64,000 nt of DNA from Marsupella aquatica (GCA_973895155.1 OZ316893.1:18383836-18447835); one strand, 5' to 3'; positions 2,993 through 43,021 are shown, counted from the stretch's first letter. Numbers and translations: made by a program. Notes: generated by a model not told the origin, from the letters alone.

Positions 2993-3004
2993 GGTCCCGA
3001 TCCA

Positions 3005-12325: not shown

Positions 12326-12337
12326 TTCACCCCCACT
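12326..12337 (-). promoter_or_regulatory. Polypurine tract
   Basis: Minus-strand AGTGGGGGTGAA immediately precedes the 3' LTR. Confidence 0.8.
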
Positions 12338-13814: not shown

Positions 13815-13939
13815 GTAATGGTAATGGTAATGTATTATAAGCTCCGGGACCATGAAAGTCAAAGGAACTGCCACAAAAAGTAAAGTACAATGCAATCAAA
13901 GAAAAGAGCAACCAAAAGAGATTGCTCAGAAGAGGACAA

Positions 13940-17143: not shown

Positions 17144-17155
17144 GGTCCCGATCCA

Positions 17156-18226: not shown

Positions 18227-18534
18227 CACAACTAGATTTTGTTGCGTCGGATGCTAACAATACCTCCTCATAATCATCGTTAATATAATTAACAACTTCC
18301 ATGACTACGTTTATAACTCCATCCAACGTAACGGTGACGTCGGAGAAATCTAAGCGCTGATTGCCCCCATTTTAACATCGTTGGAAACACATTTAAAATT
18401 AATGTCTCTGGATGAGCTGTCCTAAACATCGTTTTGGTCGTCGTTCAATATTAACGACGTCAATGTTTATGTCGTGGAGGGAGCCGTTAAAGTGGTAACG
18501 TTGCTCTGTAGGACGTTCCAATTGAATCAAGCCA

Positions 18535-19296: not shown

Positions 19297-19811
19297 GTAG
19301 CAACAATCTGGATGTCAATGGATGAGGCAGTTTAGTGATTCGGCTAGGTTATAGTCGCTTTGTGGTGGACATGCAATGTGCTTTGTAGGACCTTTGTATC
19401 TCTATATCATACTGAATCTGAATAAAGACTCCCTCATGTTTTTCATTTTGAATGCATGTGCCAATTAATGTCACCACTGTCATTAACGTCGCGCGGATAT
19501 AGTAATGTTGCAATACACGACGTCTTTTGTTTAATACGTACCCTAAAATGACGTAAGTTAGTTTAACGTCATTTTAAGTGGAGAATCAACGTCGTGTGGA
19601 GTAACATAAACTGGGTCGTGGCTAAATTAACGTCGTTGAAGGCTCAATAAAACAACGTTAATTGGAATTAACGTCTGCCTGGTACGACGTAGTTTGAAGA
19701 TACATTGGTCTACCGAACGTAATAGTCATACAACGACGTTACCCACAGATGCTACAAACCCACATGAAGGTGGCCATAACGAATATATACATGCATTGAA
19801 TACATTTATGG

Positions 19812-22800
19812 TCATGGATCCATATCATCTACAATTACTGAAGCCATCAAACCCTTCCTCCGCCGTGGGAAGATGGGAATGACGATGGACCATCCTCTCA
19901 TAGTGTGCATCGGAACCATAATACACTGATCCACCTGGCTAGAAAATACTATAGTGTCACTAACCTCAGTCCCGGATGGTGCTACACGAGTCGTGTCTAC
20001 CCGATAGAACCCACACTCATCTTTCACCATGGTGGCTCTATGTGGAGGTGACATGATGGATTTGTGCCATCGCACCTCTAACACAATAGTAGTAAATGAC
20101 CCAAAGTGAACGTCTAAAATATCCAATATAGTGCCACAATAGGGTATCTCAACATCACCTGGGTCTGTCAACATGAACACTCTTGAGTTACATGTACTCT
20201 TCTTCATGTGATCTGTCCTCCAAGTGTGAAAGTGGTGCCCTGACTCATACATGTGTGTATGGGTCGTTGCCCACAACCCTGGTCCCCTAATGATGTTCTG
20301 TACATCAATGGGAATGGATAAGGGTCCATGCTCTGCAAGGAGCCTATCCATGCGCTCCAATGCCCATACGCGAAATAATGCATACCGTCGTGCAACTATC
20401 GGTTGCTGCTCCAAGAATGCACTGCAAAAAATGTATGAATCCATGAGAATATTGCAAGCTCATCCACAGAAGTGCTCCTTGAACCCACTCTAACTTCTAC
20501 ACACATAGAATGTAGAACAACGTCTACTGTTAGATTAACATATATATAGAGTTGCATATATGTACCTATGCAACTCCCTCCACTGAGACATCTCTGGGCG
20601 ATTTCCCAACACATAATTGTGGATCTGTAGGCGAAGTATGTCATCATGTAGTGAACGCTTTTTTGATGCACCCATCAAACGCAACCCACCATTGTCATCA
20701 TCTTGTGCCTCTTCCCAAGTTGTGGGAGCTTCTGTGTCCAAACTCCCTATCATCCCTCCGGAATAAAAGAGGCACTCCGACATGATATACCCCGTTGCCA
20801 TACTTCCCTCTGGTCGAGCTGGTTGACGCACCATGGACTTGAGCACTTTCATGAAGCGCTCTACCCAATACATCCAACGTGCATGGACAGGACCAGCAAT
20901 CGCGACCTCATCCACCAAGTGACATAATAAATGCAATTGCATGTCAAATATGCATGGGGGAAACACCTTCTCCATATTGCACATCACGCGAGCTGACCTC
21001 TCCCTCATCAAAGGAATCTCAGACTCCTTTATCTCCTTAGCGCATACCCACCTATGTTCCTCCTCAAAACCATCAAAGATTTTGTATATCAGATCCACAT
21101 AGGGCCATAGAAAAATGAGTTTGAAATACTTGTTGAATTACATGGCTCCTCCAGCGGTAACAAGAACTTGCAAGAGAGCAATGGAAGAGAGGGTACGTTA
21201 TCATACCTAAAAATGGAGCACATCTCATATATAGTCAGACGGAGTAAACGATGCTCCCGGGAATCATCACAACAACGCAAGACTGCTGGTAGCACATGTT
21301 GTATCAACTTGTGATAATCATGAGACTTCAACCCTATTGGGGGTATGTGATCATTCCTTGTAGTGCACCCACAAAAACCAGCTCCGTAATGGCTAGGGAA
21401 CTTCATCTCGCTTATCATCCCATTCATGTCCTTCAAAACCTCTCTTGGCAAAATCCAAGGACCAGGAGGTTTCTCCCCAGTACGTGTTATCCAACAACTC
21501 TTCACTACTCCAACCCTCTCAGCATCCTCTCGGACTCCACAAGTGTCATTCGTCCCATAAATATGCTTCACCAAGTTCTTAGCAACATTCACTTCAATGT
21601 GCATGGGGTCCAACAACCATCGAACCTGGAGTCTCTGGAAATTGAAATAACATATTGAATCAGTTGCAATCTCTAAATTAAGCATTTTATTGGTCTAATT
21701 TGCTGTAAAGGAACCATGCACTTCTATCACTTACCCTCCAATAAGGCAAGTCCCACATAGCTGAGCGTCGGTTTACTCCACAATCCTTGGGTTTCAGTAA
21801 CTTTGCTTCCACCTTCTCTGCCATTTGAATTTGTCCTTCAACTGAAGGGCCATTAGGACATGGCCGCACTTCAGTCTCTGCCCAATGTGTTGTGTTTTGT
21901 CGCAAGTGGTCATCCATTGCCAACCGGACCCTACTGCCCTCATATGTGGTTTTGTGCAGTAGTCTTGAGTACCTCCCACGCAACTCTGGGCCACATGAAG
22001 GGCAAGCTGAAAAACCTGCCACCTTCAGGCCAGATATTGTCCCCATACCTGCCATTTCATTGAACCATGTTCAGACCACAAATAACCCCAACACTTGCAT
22101 TGTACATGACATTGTGCAAACAATAGTCATTGGGTTGCCCAATGAATTACCTGGACCATCTCTGGTGCAATGAGTGATCATCACCCTCATATTGAAGGTC
22201 CTGCCATTGCCTGCTTCACGAGTGACATCTGTTGTCACTGCTCCAACCTCCCATAGATTATGTAGCTCTTCATAAGCTGGAGCCAAACAGATATCAGGAT
22301 TCTTACAGGCCTTGGGTCCAGGAATTATAGCTAATAGAAGCACATGACCCTTCTTCATTGCCAACCATGGAGGGATGTTTTGATTTATCAAAAGAATAGG
22401 CCAGATGGACTTAGGCTTCCGTCGTTGTTTATATGGGTTCACTCCATCGATTTCCAACCCCAAACGAACATTTCTTGGCTCCTGGGCAAAATTTGGCCAA
22501 GTGGCATCAATGTGCTTCCACGTTGGACTATCTTGGTGGTATTGCATTATCCGTGGTGGGGATTTGTTCTCCACATGCCAAGTCTGTAGTGTGGATATGT
22601 GCTTTCATCGGTAGAGATGCTGAAGTCGGGGAGTGATTGGGAAATAACAAAAAACCTGCCAGATCCAATGTAACTCGTCAATTTGACGACAATCACACTA
22701 AACATCCTTCCACACTACGTATTATTAAAACTAACATCGTGGAGGACGACGTTTCTTACATACGATGTACCATGCGACGTTAGTTATTGCATCCCATACG

Positions 22801-25140
22801 ACATAAAAACAAAAAAACGTCAGGTGGAAAGACATAAAGTGAGATGGACGACGTAAAGTAATCAATTACATAGTCATGTACGACGTTGTTTGAAAGAATG
22901 CAACATTAAAAGTTGGACTTTCTTGTTCTCACATTGCGTTGAGGAAAACATTACCTTTTCTGCAATCTTGTCTCCAATGGTGTCTGGTCGATACCGTGGA
23001 AGCCTACAGTGCTCCTCTGGGCAGTGAGTGTGATCCTTGTACACCCCTCTATACAAGATGCACCCACCTGGGCACATGTGGATAGTCTCTAAAGCCAATC
23101 CAATTGAGGCTAACAACTTCTTAGCCTCCCTCACACATCCAGGGAGAGTGTTTGGTTGGGGCAAGAGTTTGCCGTGGAACAATTGGAAGAGTGCATCTGT
23201 ATGGACATCCGAACCATTGAAAACTCCTTGAAAATTCAACATCAACAAAGTTGCACCCAACCTAGATTTGCAAAACCACAAACACCAGACTTTTTGCAGT
23301 TAGTCCAAGTAGCTAGATGGCATGCCTGGCACTACAACTTAGACTGCCCAATATTCACTGGATGAAATTCCAGAGTTGTGATAATTTTAGGACAACCTTA
23401 CCGTGAGGATGGAGATCCCTCAAATAGAGGTGTTCTGGCTTCAGTCTCCAAGTGATCCCAAGCTTCTTGATCCACTTCCATGATAGGGTGCTCGGCGTCA
23501 GGTGCATGAGGTCCAAAGTGAATGTCAACAAGGTGGGCAAAGGCATCTTCTTCAAGGATAGGGTCATCTCCCTCATCTCCCTCATCGTCAACATCATCAT
23601 CCAACTCTCCATTATATGCATCATGGTACTCCTCATCCTCATCGTCCATCTCATCATGGTCAAGGGGCTGACCCTTAGCATCCTCCTCGTCTGAGAAATG
23701 TAAGGTGGCACGTACGTGAAAGGCACGGGCTGATGTAGTCATCATTGATGGGTGAGGTGTGGGAGTAATATGTACACCATCCTACAGTTTTCAATATGCA
23801 ATGACAAATCACAATTAGAGAAAGGGTTTCCGTGATAAAGCTTATAGTGAAACATCAATAATGAAAAATGCAAGGGTCACCCCATAATGAATATGTCACG
23901 TACACATGTAAACATCAATGCCAATCATAATCTACGAGAATCTCTTGCATCTCGCCGCCGAATACTTGGGCCCATAGAATGGAAACAACTGAGGCAAATC
24001 ATCGGGTGCACAACCGGTAGGGACCACGATATCCACAAGAGCAAATACTCCAAGTCCTACATGAGTCCCCAATGTGGAGGGGAGGATGACCCATGGGCGG
24101 TCCCAAACTATAATAGGCTCCCAAAGCGGTAGGGAGTCCAAACTGGGCTGGGAAGGAGTCCTTTAAGATGTCCAAGGCTCTCCCTCGCAACTGTCTCGGT
24201 GCCCGGGACACCGATGTATCAAGAAAAGGGCATCGGGGTGGAACAATCCTAGGTGGACGGGACTCAATCGATCAGGGTCTAGTGGTCACCACTACTCCCC
24301 TCTCAATAGGGTGCATCCTAAACACTCTCCTCCTCCTCCAAAATACACAGTCTATCTCCCTCAATGTGGCTGGAAAATCGGATGGATGGACGAGTGGTGC
24401 GAGTGCATGATATGCAATGTCTCTCAAGCGGTCCACAAGCAAAGATCGCACTACAACAGGAATCTGTTCCACATGTTCACCAAAACAAGTTCAGAATATG
24501 ACAATCAAAAAACAATTCAAGGAAGGAGATGTTATCATAATTGCAATACCCAACAAAATTGTATTACCTCTCGGGTCGGGGGGGTGTAACGACCATGGAT
24601 CCCTAAATGGCTAAGGACAGTGGTCCTCTCGTGTAAGACAACACCCTTGCATCGTCTGCAAGGGGAAGGCATCTTGCGAAACTGGCCCAATCCCCTGAAG
24701 AGCAGCCACGGCCTCTCCAAATCCATCAGCATGATGGGGGCTCCGGCCTCTCCTACCCTCAGAATGATGTCTGCATCGACGACGCCTAGATCGGTGACGC
24801 CTAGATCGATCATACATGTCTGGTGAGTAATCTCTCTCCCGGTCCGACAGGTCGTCCCTCCCCCTATGATGATGGTCATCTCTGCGTCGGGTGTAAGTAC
24901 CCCCACCATGGTCCTCATAGGATGAGTCATCCCTCCTCCTCCCTCCCTCGTCATCCCTCCTCCTCCGCCGCTCGTCATTGCTCCTATAGCCTGATGAAGC
25001 TGAACTCCCCCTATGCCGATGATGGTGTCTATGTCGGTGAGAACTACCGCCATGCTCATCGTCATCATCACACGAGTCATCCCTTTGCCTATCCGACTCA
25101 TCATACGTCCCCCTATGATGATGATGGTATCTGTGCCGAT
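19812..25140 (-). pseudogene. CACTA TnpD-like transposase (transposase-associated Cys/His motif, Tnp2/Transposase_21, DUF4218/DUF4216-like), multi-exon; first 16 codons at 35793-35746
   Basis: PCRRCKG...HLGIHG, IHMCPGGCILY, DSPTWKHID...PRNVRLGL..DGVNP, LLDPMHIEVNV, GLKSHDYH, FDMQLHLLCHL...WMYWVER, YCGTILDI. Confidence 0.88.
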
Positions 25141-25740
25141 GGGTATAGCGACCGAGACAACAAACAGGCAAACAACAAATACTTTTCCTGTTTGCCTTAT
25201 GCTGTTACCAGGAAAAAACATCTTGTACCAGGGGAAAGAACACACAATCAGGAGTTTAGAATTGTTTAAGTTGGAGTTAGTCCATTGCGGTGAGGGAGGA
25301 TACCTTGTCATGAATCGCTGAACCACATAATAATTGAACCTCATATCCCAACACAAACAAGGGCGAGCATACATAAAAATGTCAAGGAATGCGCACAAAA
25401 ATGGTAGGTCCCACCACAATCGGCAACAAAATATATGAAAATAATACAAAATTAACGCAGCCCAAAACTTTATGGTATGATATGGTCCAAAATAAAAGCG
25501 AACAACGTCTTGACTAGCGCCTGGCGCTATCTTATCGGTATTTAAGGAAACAAATAGTTGGTGTTGAGAACATCAAGCACAACACGATGATATTTAACGG
25601 TGTAGCCTAAACGAAAAAATTATCAGCGCCTGGCGCTAACAAAACATGACGCAACATAAATAACACTATACCGTTGACATACGACAAAATCAATATAACC
25701 GTTTGGACCAATAATACAACCTACATCATCATGATTCATG

Positions 25741-28700
25741 CTATAAACCATGAGCATTTTTCCTCTCTAATATGAGCCGAACCTCTCCAACAGTGAGAAT
25801 TGGTTGGCTGGTCAATGTAGATTCCTCAACGTCTAGTTTGAAAACGGTAAGGAAAATCCAATACAAATGTTTGCAAGGCATATATGGATGTTTCCGAGAA
25901 TGCTGCCGGTAGAAATCCTCACACGAGCAAGTGGGGAAAATGCAAATTTGAACAAAGTAACAATTTGGCGTCCGCATATTTTCGTGCATTTGCACCTTAA
26001 ACTGCTTTCCCCATGCATTCCCAATCGCAACATCCCACTCTCCCTGAATGGACATCGTCTCTTTTTTAGCAGAAGCAATTATGTTCATGTGACCCTGGGT
26101 AAGATTTGACCGAGGAACCGTATTCCTCCAATTCCGGCTTCGGAGACGAACATTGGGTTTGAGAAGATTCACATGTTCTGGAAAGATATTGACATTGATT
26201 CGAAGATCAAAATCTGACGGGGGTCTAGTTGTACGTTCATTTCCGTGCACTAGGGAGATTCTGTTGTCAAGAAGATATTGCAACTCGTCTTCCAAAACAT
26301 TTGTCCCTTTCAAAATGGGAAGAACATTAGGGAAAGGGGGCAGGTTCAATACACCTCGACGCGGGCGGCTTCTGTAACATGTATTGTTTGGGCAAAACCA
26401 AGTCATTTCGGTTATGGGTTCCCCCTGAAAATGCGTTGTCCTTTGACAACAACGCCGATAACACCATGTGGTGAGGGAAATCCAACTCTTTTCACGCGAT
26501 TGCGACACTCGTCTCTTTCAGAATTACGGGAAAATGATCCGTTGCACTGAGGACCAGCACCAAATTTTGAAGTTTGACGTAATTGCCATGCAGTTGGAGC
26601 AACCTCGGTCTCACGGACAGGACACTCTTGTAACGGTTGCTGAAGCACGGAGGGAGCAGTCTGGGGAAGCCTCGTTGAACGCATTCGGTCTCGAGTAGGA
26701 GGGGTATTGAAATCGACATCTTCTCCACCGCCCAAAATGTCACTTCCAGACAGATTAACAACAGGATTAACTTGAGGCGTGGGGCCAGGGATAGCATCAA
26801 ACGTCGTGCGATTAAGATTCTTCCTTTTCATCGATCTAGTATTGGGCGAGGTGACAAGGATTTTATCATGCCTATGGGAGTCTTGTGGCGAGATATTCCC
26901 AGATGCATGTCCTTTCCTCTTCAAAGATTTGGTGACAACGTCTCCATTGAGAGGTGCACGTCTCTCCAAGTCAAACTTGGCAGCGTTGGATAGTAGCATA
27001 TTCATTGCATCTTCATACAACTTGGGGGAGCCTGCCTGGTCCGCTGATCGGAAAGCGAGTTCCCAAATTGTGGGACCTTTTCCTCTATGCAACCCTTTCC
27101 GATACGCAGTGTAAGCAGCAACCTGAGAAATAGCTCGATTTTGGTCCATTTCACATGCCTCAAAGAGGCCAACCTTTTTCTTCATTACCCGTGCTTTCAT
27201 ACCTGTGTGCACCGACTCTGATCCTGTACAATTAGGAATCTTAGCCCCTTCTTCGACACTCTTGTTCTGCAATTACATAGAATAAATTGTCTGTTATGCA
27301 ACAAGAAAACACTAGCGTCGGGCGCTAGTGAAGTGGAGTATGTACCTAGAAGTAAAAACTGGCACTGTCCATTAAGGGACAACTTATTGCGTCGTATTGT
27401 GTCATATGACAGTTTGAATAAATGATAGCGCCAGGCGCTAGTATTAAAGGATGCTATGGTATTGTAATATTTGAATATGGATACAAACATTTTGTAATGA
27501 GAATATAGCACAGCAATACCTAAAGAGCGGAAAGCAAAGTAAACTAACTTACCAAACGAATAAAATTTCCCCATTGCCTCCACCTGACGACCCACCATGA
27601 AATCCAACTCTGGAGCATCCGGAGCTTCCCCGGACACAGTTACCCGACTGCCACCACAAATCAATCTCCCTTGAAATTCTGTAAGCCTCTACAAACATGG
27701 GGGCATTTCGCATCTTATCCCAAAGCCTACGATGCTCTGCTTGACTCTCTTCAATCACTCCTTCAACTGAATGGCGATGGAAGGCTTGGTAGAAATGGAA
27801 TGCGTCAGTTTGCTCACGCTCTGGGTTTGGATGCCCTCCAAAAAAGACATTTTGGACTGCCAGCCAACCAGCTTGAGCATTGTCCGCCATAATCCATGAA
27901 TAATCGGATTTTCTAATCCATTCTCCTTGGACACCTCAATCATTAGTCTCCAAGCCTTCTCGAACGACTCTCTATCCTTTGCTTTTAGTTCGCAGGTAAA
28001 TAAGGTACACAGAGCGCGATAGTTGTGATCGTAAATATGCGCACTAAAAGTAACCCAGTCTTTTGTGAGTCGTTTCATCACATCAAAACTTACCCAAGCA
28101 CCTTCGAGACTTCCACCAGGTTGCATTTGTCTCAAAAGATCGACGCCTGATCCATGGCCGACCGAAGTCAGCTTGAATATGTGAGGACGGTCTTCTTGAG
28201 ATCCTTGACCTAGCTGGTAGGAGGTACCTTTGGAGGAATGGCATGTTGATATTTCTTTGATACCGAACAAGAAAATCAAGTTCACCTCGACCTTTCTGGT
28301 CCTATCTAACACTACGAAAGAGGGACGCAAACTTCTGGGGTGTGGAAACTACCATGAGCGACTCAAATATCTCTGTTTCTTCAATATCTTGAATATCTTC
28401 CACACTTTCACACAGGACTTTACAAAGGACCCTGTCGCCACATTTTTTACACCAGCAGGGGTGAAAATTGGATTTCCTTCCAATTTCTTTTTGATAACCT
28501 CCTCAACAATCTTCTCTGCGCTCCGAGAAAACACCTTTCTTGAAGGATGGTTGTGGATCCCCATATGAATTGCCAAGCGGGACATGTGAGTACAGGTTTC
28601 TGAGTCAACTAGAACCTGAGGGTACATGTAAAATAACCTTGCTGGACAGGATTGGACACAAAATGGAACTTGATCACAAAATTGGCAAACAACTCCACCT

Positions 28701-29557
28701 TCGTCAATGAAGGAGCCAACACGATGTTGCCCGCCAAGTTTGGGGGTTCCACCCCACGCCTTCTGGTTCCTCCTTTTCTTCCATCGAAAATAGTCGCAAG
28801 TATTATTCCTACACTCAATGGAACCAATACACATTACTTTACCAAATTCCCAATATTTCTTGGGATGAACATTAGCTGATGTAGGAAATATTCTGGTCCA
28901 GATGTAGCAATCCTTTGACCGGTCCATGTCGCGCAGACGTGACCCCTTTGAAAGAGCTCCCGCAGGAGGCAACTTGAATACAATATTTCCATTGTATTTC
29001 TTTGGCAAACAGCCGACTTGTTCATGGCAGAAGTCCCCAGCCGTGATGAACCTCGAGATTTCATTGGAACCAGTTGACTTGAGAATGGTATCCATTGCAC
29101 TTCTCCGATACACAATGGAATTTTTGGTAAAAACTCCTGTAACCTCTTGTTTAATAGGGGTAACCTCCTATTTAACAATTGTGTGAGGGGGTTTAGCACT
29201 ACGCTCAGGCAAACCAGAAGGTCCATCATCGTCGCTATCTGAAAGCAAGACAACATCAACAAAGGGTTTGGATGAAGATGGGAGATCAGATGCGACTGGT
29301 TTTCGAATGACAATAGAATACCGAATTCTTGCATTCAGGTGCCAAAAACGAATCCCATCATCAACATCAAAAGAAGCAGTGAAATTAGAGGTTTCATCGC
29401 CGTTTCCCTCCAAAATGTCCTCAATGTCGTTCAAATCCAAACCAAAGCGCCCACAGAGATAATTCTCACTAACTTGCTTGTATACGTCATTGGCCGACAA
29501 TGGAATGGATACAAGGTCACCGGTAGACGGACGCGTTAGAACGATTGACCTCGACAT
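25741..29557 (-). pseudogene. A2 transposase gene (GCM-like Zn domain, Mutator-type DDE core, Cys-rich domain, SWIM); intron about 27550-27268; several lesions
   Basis: DCYIWTR...KVMCIGSIECRNNTC...CQFC...CPAR...HMGIHNHP, WVSFDVMKR, MADNAQAGW, DAFHFYQ, SESVH, CSCEDF...PCKHLYW. Confidence 0.85.
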
Positions 29558-30525
29558 TGTAAGATCATCCAACCCAAAAACACTTAGTTCACAATAATGA
29601 ATGACGTCTTCGAATGCACACAATGGTATTCATAGTGAATAATCCGTTTGTCAGAGCCGTTAGAATACGACAGAATCACTACCGGTCGAAAGCACATCTG
29701 ACACAATAAATGTTTTTTGTCGTTATGTCAACGACATTTACACTAATGAGCCTAAGATGTCAGTTTCCGAAGAGCATAATCATGTTTATTAAATCATCTT
29801 AATTGAGTAGCGCCGGGCACTACTCAAACATCCTCACTCCAACATGGACCCAAAATGGTGCAATATATGTTTAGCGCCAGGCGCTACTCAAACCCACACC
29901 CTAAATTGTGGTATTAAACTGGAATATTTTATCCGGGGTTTCAGAATAGATCCTAATGTTTGTAGCTATTTTCCAAATATTATCTAAAATTTTACCAAAA
30001 TGTGCCCATTTAATATTAGCGTCGGGCGCTAATCTAGAACGGTAATCATGATATTCATTTAAGGAAAAATATTCAAAAATTGTATTCATTTTATTTTTTA
30101 TTTTATACTTCAGGGTCAATGTTGTCCTAACTTAGGGAAAATTTAGGGTTTAAATATTGATCGTTTTGGGTAGCGTCGGGCGCTACTATTGACCAATATC
30201 AGATTTGACCTAGGAATATAGATTAAAATCACCAAACTATTCTTTAACGGTCATATTCAACGGTAACTTTAGGTCCCGTAACGTTGAAGATATGCCAACG
30301 GTATTCGAACAACTAATCCAGAATTGACAAGTGGCGCTCAGGAGAATGTCGTAAATAGATATCAATGTAGCGAGGGGATAGTTTAGAGATGATACTCTCC
30401 CCACCTCCCTTGTCCACGGTATTTAGGTTCCGTTTCGGAGGTTCTTCGTGCAAGAATTCTCTAGAAGAAGTACGGTACGAATGAGGTACTCATCACGATC
30501 GTTAAGCACTTCGTGTATGCGAAAC

Positions 30526-33500
30526 ATGGACCCTCTCCCCACCACCTCGCATGGGTATAGTGCTAACGGGCAGAGAGAGCAGATCCATTCCCAGACATCC
30601 GAGTGCTCATTTTCTGGATCTGTTTATAGTCGTCGTGTGACACGGTCTACAGCATCCCAAGATCCCGAAACAGTCGCGGTAGTCACATTTCCAAAGATCA
30701 GGAGAGCGAAGATGGACGATCTCGACACATACGCTGTGGAAGATCGAGGAGAAATGTCACTGACGATGTCCGACATTATCTCCAAGCACGTTATGGTGTT
30801 TGGCAAGGATTTTTGAGGGCACGACAAAGACCCCCCAAGGATTCTAATGTGCCGCTTGGTTCACATGGAAGTTGTCCGCAACTTATAGAAGGGAAGTCCT
30901 TCAATTGAAAAGTTGAAGGACTCTTTTCGTAGCACAGGATACAACTCAAAAATCGGAATGTTGTTCTATGTCTAGCCGACAGATTCGAATGGGAATGTCC
31001 AGACGTGTACTCCAGAAATTCGAGCGACCTGGGACCCGGTGTGGGTGGCCGAGAACGAGAAGTTTGAAGCTGAATGTGCGGCCGATCCAGACTTCATGGT
31101 GTTACAAGATAAGATGTTTTATGTTTTTGACGGTAACCATCGACTTTACGCATGGTCGATCGTTACGAAAGAAAATCCGGAAGATAGCAAGTATCACCCG
31201 CGTGTGCAATGTACTATCTTCAAGGGTGAAAAGGGATCTTTGATTGAGATTGAGGCGGCTATGCATACTGTGAACCAATAAGTCTCTCTTTGAATTTCAC
31301 CTATCCTTATCTTTTATAGTGTAGTTTTTACTAGCGCCTGGCACTATTGACTGACAAATTCTTCTGTAGACTTGGACAGGCCGTGGTGGAACCTTCCTGG
31401 ATACTTGATGCAGACTGAATTAAGAGGATTTTGTCCAACGATCTAGAATACTACAAATCAATCATCGATGGGGCAAACTTCAAGAAGTTTGGGCAGGTGA
31501 TGCAGAAGACTCAAAAAGGATCGTGGTATTCCAAGAAAATGCCTCAAGAAGCACTTCTGTATATCTTATGCGAGAATAAGATTAAATCCTATTCTCGACA
31601 ATTCAAGATGGACATGGAATCGGCTACCGCTCAGGGAAATCCTTGGTCTCAGGAAGAGACATCCAAACGACATGCCGTCATGATGAAAGAAGCAACGAAG
31701 GATTGGGCAATCAAGGTCTCAAAGATCACTCCCTTGTTGAGTCCTGAGTTTGAAGACTTCATGACAACCTGTGTTGAGATGTATCCGATGACAGAGGTGA
31801 ACAAACGCGAGAAGAAACCGGATGCGGTTGTCTATACCATGGATCGTGCCAGGTTATTTATAGCTGTCTCCGCCCTCGACCCCAAATTGAGGAGCACTTT
31901 GTTAGTAGCGCATTGCACGCCAAAGCTCAGGAAGCAGTTCTTTCATCCGCAAAGTGTTAGCGATGACCCTGTGAAGCAGTGGTGCCACACTTGGCAAACT
32001 TGGAATAGCGTGGAGGGAATTGCCATTGGTATGCTGCAGACTGCCCTCCAGCAAATCAGTGAAATAATTCCTTCCAATCGATTGGAGGAATGGAAGTGTG
32101 AGTCTTATGATTCACTCGTTGAAATAGTGTGCAATGATTTCAAAAAATTTGGGGATGCAGTGAAAGGTAAGTTTTTCAATACGATGTGGATGTCCAAGTA
32201 CCCGGACAAGGAAGACTACACACTCAAGAATCAAAAGCGAGCGAAACGATATGTCTATCGTTTCTTCATGCACATGGAGATTGTGAAGCCTAACTATTTT
32301 CGGGATTACCCAACTGCTTTCCAGAATTGGGTCATCTGCGCAGATGGAGACATTTTGGCCAAACTGTATTTGATGTATCCCGTTGAGGGTATACTTCCAC
32401 CGAGGAAATTGTCCGAGTGGGAGAGAATTCACTGCCCTTGGTATCTTGACACCGACAGATGGGATTCTCCTTTTGACGACACTGAGAATGATGCTTTCCA
32501 TAAACTGTCTAAATCCCAAGTTCCTAGACAATTTGTCTCCAACATGAAGCAAGGAATTGAGGGGGACGTCAACTCGTTGACGACTGAGTTGCAAAAAAAA
32601 TGCGAAACCACAGTGGTTCATGTTGATCGAAGCCGAAAACCAAGAGCCAAAGCCAAGGCAGATGCCCCTGTGGCAAGTGCTAGTGCCAAGTCTGCAAAAA
32701 AATGTAAGCTACACCTCCTTCTTCCGACTTCCTTATTTGGTAGCGCCTGGCGCTATCATGTGTCGTAAGTTTAATGTGTCTTATTTACCAAAATTAATGT
32801 GGGTGTTTGGTCAGCGCCTGGCGCTAACACTCTTTCTGTGCTTGACACCGTTTTTTGGTAGGTGGTCGAAAATCTGATGCCGCCACGGATGACACAAAAG
32901 TCGATGCAACACCAGAAGTCTCTGAGGCCAACACTGGTGCCAATCCAGACCCCATCACCCCCGTTGAGAAGGGGAAGGTTATAGTTCCTGTGGATGCTAC
33001 AAGCACAAAGAAGAAGAAGAAAAGGACCATCGATGCCTGGGAATCATCGCGAGATAATGCTTCTGGGGCCGGTATCCAACGGGATGTGGGGACTTTCAAG
33101 ACCAAACTCGGAAGACACTGTATGGTCGAATCAAGCTTGGCAGAATTCATTGATAGTGCATTTAGTAAGGAAGAGAAGCCAAATTGAGTCTCAGATGCTG
33201 AGAAGTGGAGTAAGGATTTGATCAAATCGGGGTGTAGAGATAAAGGAATCACTCGAGGTGGGAAGGAACGATCATTTGGGGTGAATGCGGGTTTCATCTA
33301 TCTGACCGTCGGGTCCCGAAATGGAATGTCACAGATCACACAGCAGCCAAATCATTTTTTCGGGCGATGGACCCTTTCCTTTCCGATGACGGCATGCTCG
33401 CTATCTTATACTCGGATGACCACGATCAGATTTCCCAGGTCATTTCTGCATGTCATCAATCCAAGAAGTTCATGTGCATCAATACGCACAATGTTTTCAT

Positions 33501-34651
33501 GTCTGTCCCAATGTACAGATCCAAGACAGATGTCCAGGTAAATGTTCTCTCTGAGTAGAGCTATACTAGCGCCCGACGCTACTCTTTCTTTCTTAGGAGG
33601 TCTTCTGTCATGAATAAGAGATTTTTAAAATCCAGTTGGTTTGTCAACTTTTGCAGGTCTTCACTCTTAGACTAGATATATTTTGTCGAGTTTCTTTTAA
33701 AGGAAAGGTCCCAAAGGATCCAAGATTCAAGCCGTTATCTAGCGCTGAAGATCCTTCAATCTCAAACCTTATTGGGCTACGATCTTTGAAGGAAGATCAT
33801 TGTCCTGAACTCCATTTTATTGGGAATTCCCGACTACCGGTTGGTTTTATGCAAACTGTCCTTGAACTCTTTACGATACCTAAGGATATTGTAATTGATT
33901 GGACCGTCGGCTCAGGTAGTACGTTCATTGCTGGGGATTACTCGGGCCATTTTGTCATCGGGTTAGAAAATCATCGGGAGTTTGTTGAGACCGCTTCGAG
34001 GATTTTTTTGGATCTCATTTCTCCCAAACCTTTGGAGACACAACCTCCCCCTCCTCAAATAATCGGACAAAAAAAGAAAGATAGACTTAGATCTGTCCTC
34101 AACTTTGATTCAGATGAAGATGATGGGACGCCAGAAGATGATGTTCCCGAGGATGTCAATGATGGCGGGAAAGAGGAAACCCGACATGATGGGTCAACGG
34201 AGGACAGCGAAGAGTCTTCCAAGTAATTTTCGTCTCTCGTAAGCTCCTTTATCCTTTCAATTGTTGGCTAACCATCAATTCCACCGGTTCTATTGGTTAA
34301 GTACTTACTTCCTCTTTCTCTTCCGCTTCTCTTTTGAGCAGGTCAGAATGGAACCAAAGAAAACAGTTTCAACTCCGGAGGAAAGTGGCTCGAAATGTAA
34401 TCATCACTCCCGAGAAGCCATTTGTGTTGCCATCATACGCTGAGAACGTCGCGAGGAAGGTAGAGAAATTTAGAATGCTCTGCTGGGAAACAAAAGGACT
34501 TAGGCTTCTTAGGGGAGTAGACAGGAAGTTCATGAGGAACCCCTACGTAGATGATGTTTCTAGAAGCAAGTATATTGATGATGAGGCAGAGTCGACCGAC
34601 AGATCTCATAGCTCCCAGAATGAGAGCTCAGAATATGACACTGAAGGGTAG
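30526..34651 (+). pseudogene. A2 second gene: ParB/Srx-like domain, helical region, amino-methyltransferase-like domain and acidic C-terminal exon; introns about 31280-31369, 32704-32861, 33538-33656, 34223-34340
   Basis: FYVFDGNHRLYAW; PFLSDDGMLAIL; RLPVGFMQTVLELFTIPKDIVIDWTVGSGSTFIAG..SGHFVIGLE. Collinear homologue at 45380-49816. Confidence 0.75.
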
Positions 34652-37274
34652 CAATTTTCTCCTCTATCAGGTCAAACTTCCTCCCAACTGTACGAGTATG
34701 ACCTTGGTTTTTGTTAGCGCCAGGCGCTATTGAATTTATTAAATATGAATTGAGTTTGAGGGAGGTTGCCCCTTCCATTCAATGGTTAATGTGGTCTTTA
34801 GTAACGTCCTTTGTGTGGGTTCCTCTCCTTGTTTAACTAGCGCCCGACACTCCCCAAAAAACACGTTGGAAGTTTCCGTTTGATATTTGTCGTTTCCGCC
34901 CTAGTGTCATTTGGCTTTCAGTCGGCGACTGGTATCATCAAGAGGACCAATAACGGGAAATCCAAGCCCCTTATAAACATACTATTGTTTCTTTCAAAGT
35001 CCATTGCTCTCATTTTTCTCCTTCTCGATTCCATGGAAGGCTAGTGTATCGACAGCCCACGAGAGCATATGTCAACTTCCGAGTAGATGGTTTCCGTCAA
35101 GATCTAGATCGTCAGGACACTGGGATTGATGATGACTGTCACTCTTCGAGCTAGGACATTGTACGAGGAAGCACCCACCGGGAGTATTAGTGCCTGGCGC
35201 TAGTTACAATTGTACTGGCAACTTTAGTGTTCCTATGTAGCAATATTTGTACATCGAGGACAATATGTTTCACTTAAATAAAAAAGCTCGGGTTTCTTTT
35301 CTTTCAATTTCCCGTTAGAAGTTATGACTCAGATACCTTGGTTAAGTCCTACTTCTGTGCTTTGATATTGAACTTAGACTATTAGTAATGTTTGGTTTCT
35401 ACTTGGATCTCAGCCTGAACATCAATCCTACGTTCTCGTGATTTTCTCCACAAAGCATTAGAAGCGGCCGGCTCTAGTATTTGGCATGTTGGGGCGATTA
35501 ATGTTTCATTATTTTGGGTTTGAACGCCCGGCGCTAGTATTCGGCATGATGCGTTTGTGATTGTTTTGCCTGTAGACTCTCGGCGCTAGTATTTGGCATC
35601 GCATAATTATCAGTATTTTAGGAACGGATTTTTTTAAGTTTGCCACAATACCAGGAGAAATGTGCTCCCAAAATAGGAAATTTTGCTGTTACCAGTTCCT
35701 GTTATAGTTTTCTGTTTGTTGTTTACTGCCTTTTGTAAACACCTCGTGCCGATGATGCCTGCCCCCATCATGGTTCGATGCATAGGTTGCCATGTCCCCT
35801 GTGATCAAATTTACAAAGGCCCCCACAACATATTAAACCCCAAGCATAAACGTATCCCGCTATGTTAACCAAAATAACGTCCATCCACACGACGTTCTTC
35901 TAAAATTAACGTCATTTTTTAGGTTGTGGGGAGGTTGCCGAATTTATTTTACGTCATAATGTACGACGTACTTAATAAGTTAACGTCGTTCGGTATGACA
36001 TAATTATGTGTAATGTCGCCACTAAACCCTACACCCCTGGTTAACATTGTGATTAATGACGTTAAATTAGGGTAACGGCGGGTCTCCAAGGTTCGTGGGC
36101 TACGGTTGTTTTCCTTTAACAAAACATCGGGAAGTGACTCGAATGTGACTCACATTCAACATTCAACACTTCCCCTCTCCCCCTCTCAACCTCCTATCTT
36201 AACAGTGAATGACTATGGCTCATCCAGACTATCTCCCTTCCAGTGGAGATTTTGATGCAGACTTGGTGGCTATGGATGATCCAGGGGAGTTAGAAAAGGT
36301 GCGTAAAGCTATGCAATCAACACATTCGCTGATACATGCTTTCAACCAGAGTTGGAAGTTCTTGGGAGGAAAAGGAAGCAAGGAGTCTCAGTTTCTGGAG
36401 TACCTGGAAAATATAGAGGCCAATGCTCCTGCCCTCGATGATTATGTGGAAACTGAGAATGCAATGCTCTTGGGGGAGGATGGGGGGCCTTTGATCGATG
36501 CTCTCAACTCCTTCCCGTCCCTACTAGATGATGGGTGGGACGATCCTGCCTTCAATGGAATGCAGCCTGATTCTCAGGCACCTAGTGGGACCCCAATCAA
36601 GAGCGTGGTCAGGGTAGCACATGACAGATTCCAGCCTGATCAGGATCGGGACTCTCGCAGGCGGAGGAGGCATCGTGATAGAACACACAAACAGCAATAG
36701 CAGCCTTGATGAGAGAAGACGGAAGGGGAAAGGGAAGGAGTATAGAGATGCAGATCCACACAGTAGAGGTACATACAAAAGAAGAAGAACAGAGGGAGAT
36801 GCAAGGGCAGACAGAAGAGAGAGGTACTCACCTCAACGTGAACATCACTCCCACAAGAAGCGACAACCTTCTCTTGTGCGACCTGTAACTACTGCTGTGA
36901 GTCGAGACAAACTCCCAACCATCACCTTGGATGCGTTTGATGCTAGGCCGGATGTTCTGGATGAGAAGGCCCTCACAAATTGAGTGCAGACGTGTTGTGC
37001 CAAGCACTGTCCTGGTTGGACAACTTGGAAGGATCTCGCGCAGAACCCAAAGAAGTTTCAGCTCCTCCTGAACAATGTGCAAGCTGGGTTTAGGAACGGC
37101 CGTGAAATAGACTACAGGCACATTAGACAGAAGATCGTAGGCTACCTGCAGATCGGAGGTTTAGATGGAGAAACAAGGTTCGAAAAATGAGATGCCCAAG
37201 GACAGAGCAATACCTGAAACCAGAAGGAATGAGCAACGCCGACTTCAAGTTGATCGTGCCTGAGTTGGAAGCAG

Positions 37275-37372
37275 CACCTGACACCTGACACTTGACACCT
37301 AACACCTGACACCTTTGTCCCCCATGTGCACTTGCTTGCCTACAGGCAAGCGAGTGCACATGGGGGACAAAG
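37275..37372. repeat. 7-bp tandem array (CACCTGA-like) followed by a 29-bp-arm hairpin
   Basis: Arms at 37313-37341 and 37344-37372, one mismatch, 2-nt loop. Confidence 0.9.
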
Positions 37373-38169
37373 CTGCTGCAGCCCGCAAATCAAATGGCCG
37401 CATGCGTGTGACCAATTTCTGGGGCCAGGGAGGATGGCGAGGCTTCCTTGCAACCTATGTAAGTCCCCCACCCTCTTCAAAGCACAACTTGTTCATGCTT
37501 CGGCCGCTGCGATGAGAACATTGAATTAACGTCGTTTTTCTCCTCTAACGTCGCAAGTTCTAAATTTTACGTCTAAACCCCCTACGTTCATCCTACCTAA
37601 CGTCGTCTCTCGCGACATTACATTTAATTAACGTTGTTTCTGCATCATTAATATGGCAGTTCCACTCTATACCTTGTCTTGGACGACGTTAATTAGAAAA
37701 TGTCGTTAGGTACATTGTAATTAACGACGATGGTGACGACGTTCTCCAATTCCTGCAGAAACGCAAGTTTGGAGCCAACGTCGAGCCAAGTGAGCAGGAG
37801 CGGTTCTATTCAAAACGCTATGGCCCGGTGGCCCTATGGGCTAAGCTGGACTCTGTCCCCGAGGACCACCCAATGGTAAGTTACATAGTCAGGTTAGGTT
37901 CCTTCTATACTAGGTTTTGCATCCACTATTTGTAGGAGGTAAACTGATCCCTTATGTCATGTCCAAGAGGATTGGAGTCCTCCAGAGGGGTTAGTGGCAT
38001 GGCCCATTGCGGAAGATGAGGAGGCAGATCATGGAGGGGAGGAGCCTGATACGCAGGAGGAGGCCTTAGTAGACTGTGGGCAGGAGGGCAGTTTAGGTAC
38101 ACAGGGCCGGTCATCTTCTAACCTCTCCCCTCCAGTGGAGACTGATAGGGGTCATACCAGCCATAGACG

Positions 38170-38172
<3 letters not shown>

Positions 38173-38208
<36 letters not shown>
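38173..38208. repeat. (GA)n microsatellite within an Arg-Glu coding stretch
   Basis: Direct observation. Confidence 0.9.
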
Positions 38209-38222
<14 letters not shown>

Positions 38223-39104
38223 AGAGAGGGGGAGGGAGGGAGAGACATAGAGAGAGGAAGAGGAGCCGTGTCGAGAGGGATACCACTAGGGGACACAGTG
38301 GCACTAGAGATGTAGTCCCTAGGAGTAGAGGCAAGGGAGCTGCGGAGTTGGTGTCTGGTAGCAGTAGTTCAGACAAGGATCCACTTCGGTACGAGTTGCG
38401 GCCCCGAGGCAAACAGTCGGAGGCACCGCCACGTATTTCTGTTCGTAGGTCTGGACGTGATAGGAGCCGCTCTCAGCGGCATTAGGGTATACCATGCATG
38501 ACTAGGTGGACGTCCACCTGCATTTTGTACATTTTTGGCAAAAACTTTTGACGCCACCCATTTATAGTGGCATTCCGGACTTCATATGTCTATTTTATGT
38601 GTATTCCGTGTGTATATGAACCTAAACCTAAAGCCCACCCAACTAAGGTAGCTTGGAAGGATGTTCCATACAAGATTAATGTTTACCACAAACGGCACTC
38701 CATTCACGTCTCTCCATTCTTGGTACTATTTTCAAACGTTCTCGTTAACACCATTTTTACCAAGCCTCACACGACTTACTACTCATACGTCCTGGACAGA
38801 CTCATCATTAACAAAGTCACAAACTACGTAATCTGACATTAACATCGTTTTAAACGATGTTATCAGCTGATTTCCCTGTTCAATCTGCGTCCAGAATAAC
38901 GTCTTTATTTACGACGTTAATATGTAACGTAGTATGGACCGACATATGTAACGTCATTTTGGACGATGTAAACTGTAACCTTTGTTACTTTGTACAAAAC
39001 GTGCCCTCATTCACGTCGAGTATGTCGCCTTTCTTTAGCAGCAAGGAGACGTCGGGCTTAACGTCTTCATGTAACACGTAAAAAGTCTTGATAATGTAGT
39101 TGTG

Positions 39105-40649
39105 CTTGGTTCTCTTTCTCAAGAGTTGATATAGGGGTTCTGCAATATGAGCAAAGTGCGGAATCCAAATACGATAGAAGACACATCCTCCAAGAAATCT
39201 CCTTACTTCTTGCACTGTGGTGCAATCTCTCATCTTGTTGATTGCATCCACCTTATCGTTGTTTGGTTTGCGGCCATATGTTCCACACATATGCCCTACG
39301 ACCAATATCTCTTTAAGTCCAAACGCAGACTTCTCACCAGAAAGAGTTACTCTTGCTTCTATCAACCGATGTAGAATGGCTTCCACATCTTGCATATGCT
39401 CCCAAATGAACTGCCTCATTCCATCCTTCCTCAATGTCTCATCTTTTTTACCTTCCGCACATCCCTTGATTGGTATGTCATCAAGAAATGTGCGAGTTTT
39501 CTCCGGAATAAATAATTGCAAAATACGATTCATAGCATTTTGCATATGTGCCACTGAGTTTGTTGCTCCTTGTGGAAGGGTACACATCTTCAATAACCCA
39601 AGTGGAGTTCTCATTGTAGTGATGTCTCGGCTTCCTTCTGCAAGCTGAAACTGATCATATCCTGAGTAGAGATCTCCAATTGAATAGACAGCCCTTCCTG
39701 CAAACTCCTCCGCAAATTCATCCACAATTGGACCAGTTCCTACATTCCGAATGGTGGCTCTATTCGGCGGTTGCATATCCTGTATGAACCTTAGCTTCTC
39801 ATTCTTCTTTCGAATTGTAAACCACCGATTGGAGTATGGTGCCTCTGAACTCTCCAAAATCTTGGCTCTCAGCTTCTCTTTTAGTAGCTCCACTAGTTGC
39901 GGTAGCAAAGCTTTAGGAACCGGAATTGGTTTCAAGTCCCATGGTATATGCGGGACTGTAAAAATCACCATTGGTGCTATCTCGCGTGGATTAGCACACC
40001 CAATCTCCTCAATATTGAAGGCAAAAGCCTTCCCATTTCTAGCAATCATCTCTTTGAAGGCATCTTGCTCAACCATGGTAAGCAAGCCATCTCCTCCAAT
40101 CTTGATCTGCTCCAATGTCTCATTTGTGAAGACATGGCCTATTCTCTTGGAATCTCTCAATCTTGGTTCTTCTTGTGCTCTTCGTAGCAATTCTCCTGCT
40201 TCCAAAGGCAATGGAACTACGGCTGGTTGAACCTTTCTATCCACTGTTTTGTACTTTGTGTTGACGTTCACTCCTTCATGGACTAGATGAGATACTAGTT
40301 CATGAAGTTCTCTTCCAATCTCGATTTCTGATTTGCCTTGCTCAATTGACAAAATCACTTGCTCCACAGACTTGCCTTCTCCTTGTTCTTGTAGTATACC
40401 GAGAACTGTCTCGCCTTCTTCAATTTCCTTTGCTGCTTGCATCATACCTTCTCTTCTCCTCAATCTTTTTTGTAGTTTTCTAGTTGCTTCCTTTGTGTGT
40501 AAGAAGGAGACAACCTTATCTGTCCCTATGCCAACACATGAGGATGTGAAACACTTTTCAATACTGATTTCTTCAGCTTGTGATGGGGTTACCCTCTTGG
40601 CGCCTCGATCTCCCACCTTTGTTGTCGGGACGCCTAGTGGAAACCCCAA
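39105..40649 (-). pseudogene. Gypsy pol: reverse transcriptase
   Basis: PYSNRWF...KLRFIQD, DLYSGYDQ, LPQGATNS, FLDDIPIKG, VRRFLG. Confidence 0.92.
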
Positions 40650-42943: not shown

Positions 42944-42999
42944 CTTGCCCTCATTCTCTCTAACTATTCTCTCTACTAATTAGCACAAGCCTTGAGATT

Positions 43000-43017
43000 T
43001 CCCCAGTATGGTCGCCA
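43000..43017 (-). promoter_or_regulatory. Primer binding site, probably tRNA-Arg type
   Basis: TGGCGACCATACTGGGGA lies 4 nt inside the 5' LTR and resembles the TGGCGACTCCACTGGGGA PBS recalled for Ogre/Tat elements. Confidence 0.7.
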
Positions 43018-43021
43018 CTTA

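What the first reader, a model, noticed from the sequence alone, without database searches (positions are those of the whole stretch)
25515..35588. 15-bp palindrome TAGCGCC-N-GGCGCTA confined to introns and intergenic DNA of the element (parS-like / VANC-motif-like)
Seen in A2 at 25515, 25624, 27313, 27426, 29808, 29872, 30017, 30171, 31332, 32741, 32812, 33567, 34715, 34838 and 35188, with degenerate copies at 35462, 35522 and 35573. Seen in A1 at 4548, 4651, 6612 and 6704. Placement is conserved between A1 and A2 (two in the transposase intron, two after its stop) although the surrounding non-coding DNA does not align. Four of the five A2 introns carry one or two. I saw none in exons or in the Gypsy, LINE, CACTA or OSCA sequence. 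Inference: conserved, CpG-rich dyads in otherwise drifting DNA point to binding sites for a dimeric element-encoded protein.
Basis: partly seen in the sequence, partly recalled or inferred. Interest (0 to 1): 0.88.

Follow-up and report, generated by a model that had tools for sequence, protein, structure and literature searches.

The report
Plant transposons with family-specific intron palindromes
A broken 10.6-kb jumping gene in a plant, likely a liverwort, carries 16 copies of one short DNA palindrome only in its introns and gaps, its relatives carry altered versions at the same spots, and a helper protein it encodes (predicted ParB-like, with a likely disarmed methylase domain) likely docks there to shield its own family from silencing; similar helper genes are already reported in algae.

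Summary
The palindrome is real: 20 matches within 2 mismatches against 0.02 by chance, and 0 of 16 A2 sites tested lie in exons. A2 (25142-35745, target duplication GTGCCGATG) is a multicopy, decayed Mutator-like element. Head to head with its transposase sits a spliced gene for a ParB-like domain, a helical domain and an N4/N6-methylase fold that lacks the catalytic aromatic in 36 of 36 homologues (named ones are liverworts). The motif is wider than reported: half-site RN-TAGCG (purine at -2 in 54 of 56 half-sites). A second element in the window (B) and a metagenome relative (L001) keep this half-site in the same transposase intron but change the spacer: 5 bases in A, 4 in B and L001, each with its own centre. 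MITE, RNA-hairpin and splice-signal readings failed their tests. Best reading (0.5): family-specific docking sites for the accessory protein, working like VANC anti-silencing. The binder is not shown and the transposase is a live rival (0.2). ParB accessory genes beside inverted repeats are published for red and brown algae, so this is a new variant of a known kind.

The parts
25142..35745 (.). Element A2: decayed Mutator-like DNA transposon, 10,604 bp, degenerate termini, multicopy
   Evidence: Empty-site joint 25132 to 35746 with 9 letters fitting both sides in 4 of 4 runs laid; ends compared
25133..25141 (+). Left target-site duplication GTGCCGATG (8 or 5 bp if the element starts 1 or 4 bases earlier)
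35746..35754 (+). Right target-site duplication GTGCCGATG
25741..29630 (-). A2 transposase gene, two exons, broken by stops and frameshifts: Cys/His-rich N-terminus, DDE-like core, SWIM-like finger; start approximate
   Evidence: SWIM only E 0.07, under Pfam's cut-off
27267..27552 (-). Transposase intron (GT..AG) with palindromes at 27313 and 27426
30518..34651 (+). A2 accessory gene, 5 exons (about 30518-31277, 31370-32703, 32862-33537, 33657-34222, 34342-34651): ParB-like domain, helical domain, N4/N6-methylase fold; broken in this copy; start approximate
   Evidence: tblastn against Riccia homologues; splice sites; Pfam N6_N4_Mtase 31.8 bits, cut-off 26.7
25515..25638 (.). Two palindromes 3' of the transposase stop (25515 perfect, 25624 one mismatch, the same end variant as A1 6612)
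27313..27440 (.). Two palindromes in the transposase intron (27313, 27426)
29808..30185 (.). Four palindromes between the head-to-head genes (29808, 29872, 30017, 30171)
31332..31346 (.). Palindrome in accessory-gene intron 1 (31278-31369)
32741..32826 (.). Two palindromes in accessory-gene intron 2 (32704-32861)
33567..33581 (.). Palindrome in accessory-gene intron 3 (33538-33656)
34715..35202 (.). Three palindromes 3' of the accessory gene (34715, 34838, 35188)
   Evidence: other copies hold the consensus letter at 34849 and 35191
35462..35600 (.). Three degenerate sites or half-sites in units about 60 bp apart sharing the tail TAGTATT(T/C)GGCAT
25202..25211 (.). Different near-palindrome CTGTTACCAG 60 bp inside the left end; candidate transposase site (also 35686 and A1 7128)
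   Evidence: function inferred
35686..35695 (.). CTGTTACCAG 50 bp inside the right end
3428..7196 (+). Element A1: 3' part of a related transposase (about 70% DNA identity to A2 in exons), cut by a LINE; palindromes at 4548, 4651 (intron), 6612, 6704 (3' region)
7216..7230 (.). Variant palindrome TAGCG-CTCGA-CGCTA just outside the inferred end of A1; owner unknown
8984..10968 (-). Element B, left half: transposase core and intron with the 14-bp palindrome at 9769 and a broken one at 9681
44390..50150 (.). Element B, right half: transposase N-terminus (minus strand) and ParB-like/methylase-fold gene (plus strand) with 14-bp palindromes TAGCGA-NN-TCGCTA at 45915, 48117, 48206 in introns; outer end approximate
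10969..44389 (.). Gypsy insertion (LTRs 10969-12325 and 43022-44389, 4-bp duplication CCGC) that splits element B and contains the LINE, the CACTA and A2

Best explanation
The palindromes are conserved DNA sites kept only in the non-coding parts of a Mutator-like transposon, and they likely serve as family-specific docking sites for the element's own accessory protein (predicted ParB-like domain plus a likely non-catalytic methylase fold), which would keep that family's DNA active in the way VANC does for VANDAL elements. Shown: the sites, their placement, the shared half-site RN-TAGCG, the family-specific spacer, the element's boundaries and the accessory gene. Inferred: (1) a two-fold symmetric protein reads the two half-sites on double-stranded DNA; (2) it is encoded by the element, because spacer length and centre change with the family while intron position stays; (3) it is the accessory protein rather than the transposase; (4) the outcome is local protection from host cytosine methylation or repressive chromatin, not deposition of a methyl mark. 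Sites sit in introns and gaps because only there can they be gained without altering a protein.
For: Confinement: 20 matches against 0.02 expected; 0 of 16 A2 sites in exons. Selection: the A1/A2 intron aligns only through the motifs; in other copies none of the 40 shown differences (of 51) over 29780-30210 breaks an outer TAGCG/CGCTA, and window-specific departures at 29819, 30176, 34849 and 35191 hold the consensus letter in other copies. Protein-style readout: purine at -2 in 40 of 42 A, 8 of 8 B, 6 of 6 L001 half-sites, while in A the -1/+1 and -2/+2 bases are complementary in only 7 and 10 of 21 sites. Family code: B has TAGCGA-NN-TCGCTA (4 matches, chance 0.00) facing the A1 sites in the same intron; L001 (53% protein identity) has three TAGCG-CYGG-CGCTA sites in that intron (0 in 100 shuffles). 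Both window elements whose two genes are visible (A2, and B once its halves are recognised) pair one accessory gene with one motif type. Accessory protein: conserved in liverwort proteins of up to 1244 aa; N-terminal domain resembles ParB/Srx (KorB Z 6.0, rmsd 2.9, 94 aligned; PadC Z 5.8; Noc, ParB and Srx lead the Foldseek list at E 0.31 or worse; atlas ParB_N models TM 0.49-0.59); motif IV lacks the aromatic in 36 of 36 domains. A separate motif, CTGTTACCAG, sits 50-60 bp inside three element ends, where a Mutator transposase binds in Arabidopsis (10.64898/2026.08.24.746577 section 7). VANC21 binds motifs in introns, intergenic and terminal non-coding regions and VANC6 uses different motifs (PMC5735166 passages). 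CG/GC is 680/791 in the motif-bearing elements against 244/463 in Gypsy, LTR and CACTA neighbours (p 2e-7), a weak hint of less methylation.
Against: No binding, expression or methylation data. Every ParB match is below the tools' bars (Z under 8, E above 0.3, atlas 'name no family'); the GERRxRA motif reads DGNHR (19 of 22). The confidently folded central domain (pLDDT 89) gave no clear structural match, so no DNA-reading domain is identified. A1 and L001 are cut off before any accessory gene, so motif and accessory gene are seen together in only 2 elements, and no accessory-free relative was available as a control. The CpG hint is uneven: B's left half is 0.56 and the unrelated repeat flanking A2 is 0.86; CWG/GWC shows no difference (p 0.87); CpG is not higher in A2 exons near motifs (0.64 near, 0.80 far). 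13 of 19 mismatches in A sites are C>T or G>A, so these copies were probably methylated after insertion. B has only 4 good sites and none between its genes. The test is weak: 4 of 40 rows fall in motifs against 5.6 expected, and contigs often end at the motif.
Confidence: 0.5

Rival explanations
1. The transposase (its Cys/His-rich N-terminal domain) binds the palindromes as a dimer, for self-activation or to organise the element during transposition.
For: All 4 motif-bearing sequences (A1, A2, B, L001) have the transposase, and the best-conserved sites are in its intron. MULE transposases carry WRKY-GCM1 DNA-binding domains (PMC1702500 passages), and a Mutator transposase alone can activate cognate copies.
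Against: AtMu1 transposase peaks at the termini; here the nearest full palindromes are over 200 bp from the ends, many are kilobases inside, and a different motif occupies the subterminal position. The GCM assignment found no support in Pfam or PDB sequences. Earlier scan notes describe the accessory gene with palindromes on Sola-type elements too, which would favour the accessory protein, but I did not test this.
Confidence: 0.2
2. The accessory protein binds the palindromes and is an active, non-canonical amino-methyltransferase that writes 4mC or 6mA on its own element.
For: Pfam N6_N4_Mtase above cut-off, phage DNA-methyltransferase PHROGs, beta-class motif order and a partly kept motif I. 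This is the model proposed for the Ectocarpus protein (PMC12477816 passage). Liverworts use 4mC (10.1101/2021.02.12.428880 passages).
Against: [DNS]PP[YFW] is absent in 36 of 36 homologous domains (DLPSG, DMPTG, DLPTG) and reads SLPTG in B; most of the 36 come from one species. In rotifer N4CMT the Ser and Tyr of SPPY are needed for activity (PMC8885841 passage).
Confidence: 0.13
3. The sites recruit a host factor (transcription factor or chromatin protein), or act as splicing signals.
For: The half-site TAGCG is shared by three families; some sites end in GCTAAC 21-46 bases before an acceptor, a branch-point-like word (recalled consensus).
Against: 10 of 16 A2 sites are outside introns; distance to acceptor ranges from 21 to 271 bases; none in the introns of the host OSCA gene; spacer length differs between two elements in one genome.
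Confidence: 0.08
4. The palindromes are by-products: tiny MITEs, RNA or DNA hairpins, or products of repeat slippage and template switching.
For: In L001 the arms extend to 26 bp and one sits inside a 60-bp inverted repeat; the three degenerate 3' sites look like duplicated units.
Against: No flanking duplications (mean 1.8 bases against 1.67 at random) and no shared flanks (best score 23, shuffled maxima average 23.9); no tandem array at any site; no Rfam match; in the sense strand 6 arm mismatches cannot pair and only 3 are G-U; a 0-1 base centre is too short for a loop.
Confidence: 0.05

Closest known systems
Sola1-1_Ec32 accessory gene, Ectocarpus (PMC12477816; passages seen; supplements not read)
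   Same: About 1100-aa protein with a ParB-like domain and an N4C/N6A methyltransferase domain, on the strand opposite to the transposase, proposed to bind and modify its own element.
   Different: Here a land plant and a Mutator-like element; the methylase lacks its catalytic aromatic; a defined dispersed palindrome with a family-specific spacer is present ('palindrom' occurs 0 times in that paper's main text). Sequence homology to the Ectocarpus protein was not tested.
Plavaka PAG3 with tandem inverted repeats, Bostrychia (10.1101/2025.02.11.637652; passages and section 8 read; supplements not seen)
   Same: ParB-like accessory protein on a DNA transposon, inverted repeats in the element, and the proposal that the protein binds them.
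   Different: PAG3 carries a 2OG oxygenase, not a methylase fold; its repeats are tandem arrays next to the gene, while here single sites are spread through introns and gaps of both genes. Their supplementary figure 13 and table 6 may describe the repeat sequences.
VANDAL/VANC anti-silencing, Arabidopsis (PMC5735166; passages seen)
   Same: Accessory gene, short motif in introns, intergenic and terminal non-coding DNA, absent from exons, different motif per family.
   Different: VANC motifs are 8-9 bp, not palindromic, and multiply in tandem repeats; here 14-15 bp dyads in unrelated flanks. The accessory protein shows a different domain set. Hypomethylation is shown for VANC and only inferred here.
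Bacterial ParB-parS and relatives Noc, KorB (PMC7333895 passages)
   Same: ParB/Srx-like N-terminal fold by weak structural match; a palindromic site of similar length.
   Different: DGNHR instead of GERRxRA; no helix-turn-helix identified; no ParA seen in the element; fused to a 400-aa helical domain and a methylase fold.
MpDN4MT1 of Marchantia and N4CMT of bdelloid rotifers (passages)
   Same: Beta-class amino-methyltransferase fold of prokaryotic type in a eukaryote.
   Different: Those are host genes with intact TSPPY/SPPY and shown activity; this one is transposon cargo without that motif.
Operator triplets beside cI-like phage repressors
   Same: Same half-site and 5-base spacer, TAGCG-N5-CGCTA, in 28 viral loci; 8 of 8 long neighbouring ORFs scanned match phrog_4 (repressor).
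   Different: No sequence homology to the window; an analogy of geometry only.

Membership tests
Mutator-like (MULE) DNA transposon | 9-bp target-site duplication (length recalled) | tested here: met
   GTGCCGATG on both sides, empty site in 4 of 4 runs; 8 or 5 bp cannot be excluded
Mutator-like (MULE) DNA transposon | MULE DDE catalytic domain | tested here: inconclusive
   No Pfam hit on broken ORFs; conserved acidic motifs seen by eye
Mutator-like (MULE) DNA transposon | C-terminal SWIM finger and N-terminal WRKY-GCM1 domain | tested here: inconclusive
   SWIM E 0.07 and 0.12, under cut-off; no GCM hit
Mutator-like (MULE) DNA transposon | Long terminal inverted repeats | tested here: not met
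   The two A2 ends share only short words; fits degenerate-TIR MULEs (recalled), not canonical ones
Algal-type ParB accessory transposon (Sola1-1_Ec32, PAG3) | ParB-like plus DNA-modifying domain in one large protein, opposite strand to the transposase | tested here: met
   Head-to-head gene; 1207-aa homologue P0103; ParB part only weakly supported
Algal-type ParB accessory transposon (Sola1-1_Ec32, PAG3) | Inverted repeats within the element | tested here: met
   16 sites in A2, dispersed rather than tandem
Algal-type ParB accessory transposon (Sola1-1_Ec32, PAG3) | Sequence homology to the algal proteins | not tested
   The algal sequences were not fetched; named hits were liverwort proteins
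ParB CTPase clamp with parS | ParB/Srx N-terminal fold | tested here: inconclusive
   KorB Z 6.0 rmsd 2.9 94 aligned, PadC Z 5.8, Srx Z 5.2; Foldseek E 0.31 or worse; atlas TM 0.49-0.59 under its bar; no Pfam ParB hit
ParB CTPase clamp with parS | GERRxRA motif | tested here: not met
   WDGNHR in 19 of 22 homologues, FDGNHR in A2 and B; G and last R kept
ParB CTPase clamp with parS | Helix-turn-helix domain that reads the palindrome | tested here: inconclusive
   Central domain model pLDDT 89, pTM 0.84; no match with E under 2 or Z over 6.7
ParB CTPase clamp with parS | CTP binding, clamp closure, sliding | not testable with these tools
   Needs biochemistry
Beta-class N4C/N6A DNA methyltransferase | N6_N4_Mtase domain, motif IV before motif I | tested here: met
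   31.8 bits against cut-off 26.7; order seen
Beta-class N4C/N6A DNA methyltransferase | Catalytic [DNS]PP[YFW] motif | tested here: not met
   0 of 36 homologous domains; SLPTG in B, frameshifted in A2
VANDAL/VANC | Family-specific motif confined to introns, intergenic and terminal non-coding DNA | tested here: met
VANDAL/VANC | Motifs amplified in tandem repeats | tested here: not met
   No array at any site; only the three degenerate 3' units resemble this
VANDAL/VANC | Homology to VANC proteins | not tested
   No direct comparison; Pfam scans returned only the methylase domain above cut-off
VANDAL/VANC | Sequence-specific loss of DNA methylation in trans | not testable with these tools
   Only a weak, uneven CpG-retention hint
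MITE | Own target-site duplication and shared body between copies | tested here: not met

The most novel reading that the evidence does not exclude
A second, independently evolved VANC-like anti-silencing system in land plants built from bacterial parts: a ParB-type nucleotide clamp loads at private palindromes in the element's introns and spreads along it, while a catalytically dead methylase fold shields cytosines from the host; families stay orthogonal by changing spacer length (4 or 5 bases) and centre around a fixed RN-TAGCG half-site, which makes a reprogrammable epigenetic targeting code.
Probability: 0.2. Interest if true: 0.85.

Novelty: new variant of a known kind. Interest (0 to 1): 0.56.

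Why it matters
[quoted passage not shown] This locus supplies what a test needs: a defined site, a half-site and spacer code with three natural variants, two cognate protein-motif pairs from one genome (A2 and B) for swap experiments, and a plant group with a transformable model species (recalled). If true, it shows convergent self-protection of transposons from prokaryotic parts and offers orthogonal DNA-targeting modules. Searches for a description in liverworts or other land plants found none; the library lacks most subscription papers, and Iyer et al. 2011, cited for green-algal cases, was seen only as a reference line.

Tried and rejected
No genome is held, so genome-wide enrichment was not tested. 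No RNA holder was listed; this says nothing on expression. The word-indexed search for long homologues of the central ORF found none although the exhaustive search found 100. Scans for related loci with the central domain found nothing in metagenome or viral contigs; with the transposase, 1 locus in metagenomes and none in viral or prokaryotic genomes. PDB sequence searches gave no match under E 0.3. Fold searches of the central domain gave only short helical-hairpin matches. The homodimer prediction gave no answer (score 0.00, alignment not used) and counts neither way. The atlas gave no result for the window's own ParB-like exon or for the Cys/His-rich transposase ORF, so the first rests on liverwort homologues and the second is unclassified. 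An apparent lack of CHG depletion vanished with a symmetric control and was dropped. CpG enrichment near motifs inside exons was not found. MITE, tandem-repeat, Rfam and RNA-hairpin readings were rejected. Phage matches to the paired pattern are repressor-adjacent operators without homology. Look-ups of earlier findings by sequence, by words and near this window returned nothing.

Full report
Observation. The 15-bp palindrome TAGCGCC-N-GGCGCTA occurs 20 times within 2 mismatches in the window, against 0.02 by chance. All lie at 4548-7230 or 25515-35536. Every listed coordinate is right; 34838 and 35462 have three mismatches, '35573' is a half-site, and 7216 was missed. With exons defined by homology and splice sites, 0 of 16 A2 sites tested touch an exon although exons cover 7251 of 10604 bp. 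The A1/A2 transposase intron aligns only through its motifs; the 3' region also aligns without them.

The element. Contigs of 4 public runs (2 studies) cover the whole region with many divergent copies and join 25132 to 35746 with 9 shared letters. A2 is therefore 25142-35745 with the duplication GTGCCGATG; an 8- or 5-bp duplication is possible because A1 shares four more letters at its end. The ends are only loosely inverted. The minus-strand gene is a broken transposase with a DDE-like core and a SWIM-like finger; Pfam support is weak, so 'Mutator-like' rests on the duplication and on layout (PMC1702500 passages). The plus-strand gene, head to head, has five exons and matches full-length liverwort proteins along its length, which is why the host is likely a liverwort or another bryophyte. 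Stops at 30973 and 31416 are specific to this copy.

The accessory protein. The C-terminal domain passes Pfam's cut-off for N6_N4_Mtase but has no [DNS]PP[YFW] motif in 36 of 36 homologous domains, mostly from one species. The N-terminal domain gives converging but individually weak ParB/Srx matches; its nearest atlas clusters by features are DUF3723 proteins (0.95), a conserved cargo of fungal Starship elements (10.1101/2021.12.13.472469 passages). The 400-aa middle folds confidently without a clear structural match. No DNA-reading domain is identified.

The motif is a family code. The pieces at 8984-10968 and 44390-50150 are halves of one element, B, split by a Gypsy with a CCGC duplication, the frame continuing across it. 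B has both genes and no 15-bp site, but it has a 14-bp palindrome TAGCGA-NN-TCGCTA (4 matches, chance 0.00), all in introns, one intact and one broken copy facing the two A1 sites in the transposase intron. The single relative found in metagenomes, L001 (1 of 55 candidate stretches, 53% identity), has three TAGCG-CYGG-CGCTA sites in that same intron. All three share the half-site, and it extends: position -2 is a purine in 40 of 42, 8 of 8 and 6 of 6 half-sites, position -1 is free in A, and in A these flanks do not pair more than expected (7 and 10 of 21). In L001 the flanks do pair (3 of 3) and one site lies in a 60-bp inverted repeat, which the protein model does not explain. A fixed outer half-site, a free base and a variable spacer are what a two-fold symmetric protein reading double-stranded DNA would select (inference); the same half-site and 5-base spacer recur beside cI-like repressor genes in phages, without homology.

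Conservation among close copies. Over 29780-30210, 40 of 51 differences were shown; 4 fall in the 60 motif bases (5.6 expected if uniform, my arithmetic): two where other copies hold the consensus letter, one at the free centre, one C/T at position 6; none breaks an outer half-site in other copies. This is modest support, biased by contigs ending at motifs. 13 of 19 mismatches in the 21 A sites are C>T or G>A, consistent with decay by methylcytosine deamination.

Rejected readings. No flanking duplications or shared flanks, no tandem arrays, no Rfam family, 6 unpairable against 3 G-U mismatches in the sense strand and no fixed distance to splice sites.

Mechanism. Most likely (0.5) the accessory protein binds its family's palindromes and protects the element, as VANC does through motifs in introns and intergenic DNA (PMC5735166 passages). 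The transposase is the main rival (0.2): it is present in all four motif-bearing sequences, but an Arabidopsis Mutator transposase binds termini (preprint section 7) and a different word, CTGTTACCAG, occupies that position at three ends here. An active methylase reading gets 0.13. The only trace of protection is higher CG/GC in these elements than in Gypsy, LTR and CACTA neighbours (p 2e-7), which is uneven and not matched by CWG or by distance to motifs.

What is known. Earlier scan notes (unreviewed) pointed to PMC12477816, which I checked: a 1104-aa ParB-like plus methyltransferase accessory gene in an Ectocarpus Sola element (passages). The Bostrychia preprint reports a ParB-like accessory gene beside tandem inverted repeats and proposes self-binding (passages and section 8). 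PMC4738411 (passages) lists ParB-linked eukaryotic methylases in algae and chytrids and showed no such transposon case in the passages seen. No supplements were read; those of the two algal papers may describe the repeats. Five searches found no land-plant description. The same theme was noted in many other windows of this genome (16 notes fit 'ParB'); these are not independent evidence.

Verdict. A real, selected, family-specific motif system; a new variant of a recently proposed kind. New here: a land-plant Mutator-like host, single sites in introns, a fixed RN-TAGCG half-site with a switchable spacer, and a likely dead methylase. Interest 0.56.

Noticed in passing
window 8984-50150: Deep nesting: element B is split by a 33.4-kb Gypsy (LTRs 96.6% identical, TG..CA, duplication CCGC) that holds a LINE, a CACTA and the repeat into which A2 inserted.
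   Followed up: yes
window 1-3443 and 14152-17596: Two LINE copies 99.65% identical with extreme CpG depletion (CG/GC 0.11), far below every other repeat in the window.
   Followed up: no
window 5918-6211: A 255-bp piece matching 13812-14066 (99%) inserted in A1's last exon between direct repeats of about 29 bp.
   Followed up: partly
window 7216-7230: A variant palindrome 20 bp outside A1's inferred end; the DNA to its right matches no known part of A or B.
   Followed up: partly
window 29808, 30017, 30171, 27313, 33567: A recurring centre variant TC-G-GG; at 30171 most other copies have CC-A-GG and at 29808 about half have T at position 6, which may reflect conversion between sites or a shifting motif.
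   Followed up: partly
L001 1172-1231: A 60-bp inverted repeat with 29-bp arms centred on a motif, and 26-bp palindromes at the other two sites.
   Followed up: no
homologue P0073 residues 85-300: Nearest atlas clusters are fungal DUF3723 proteins and unnamed cnidarian clusters, suggesting that the Starship cargo DUF3723 may be a related ParB-like accessory domain.
   Followed up: partly
L002-L029: 28 viral loci carry paired TAGCG-N5-CGCTA sites, mostly triplets about 29 bp apart between a cI-like repressor gene and a small divergent ORF.
   Followed up: partly
window 55600-61750 (minus strand): Intron-rich host gene of OSCA/ERD4 type, judged by eye from exon translations; no 15-bp site in it.
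   Followed up: no
window 48410-48950 and 50181-50298: An insertion interrupts the last methylase exon of B, and 118 bp of it recur inverted near 50181-50298.
   Followed up: no
window 25142-25240, 35650-35745, 7100-7196: Element ends share AAACAG/AAACAACAAA words and CTGTTACCAG 50-60 bp inside.
   Followed up: partly
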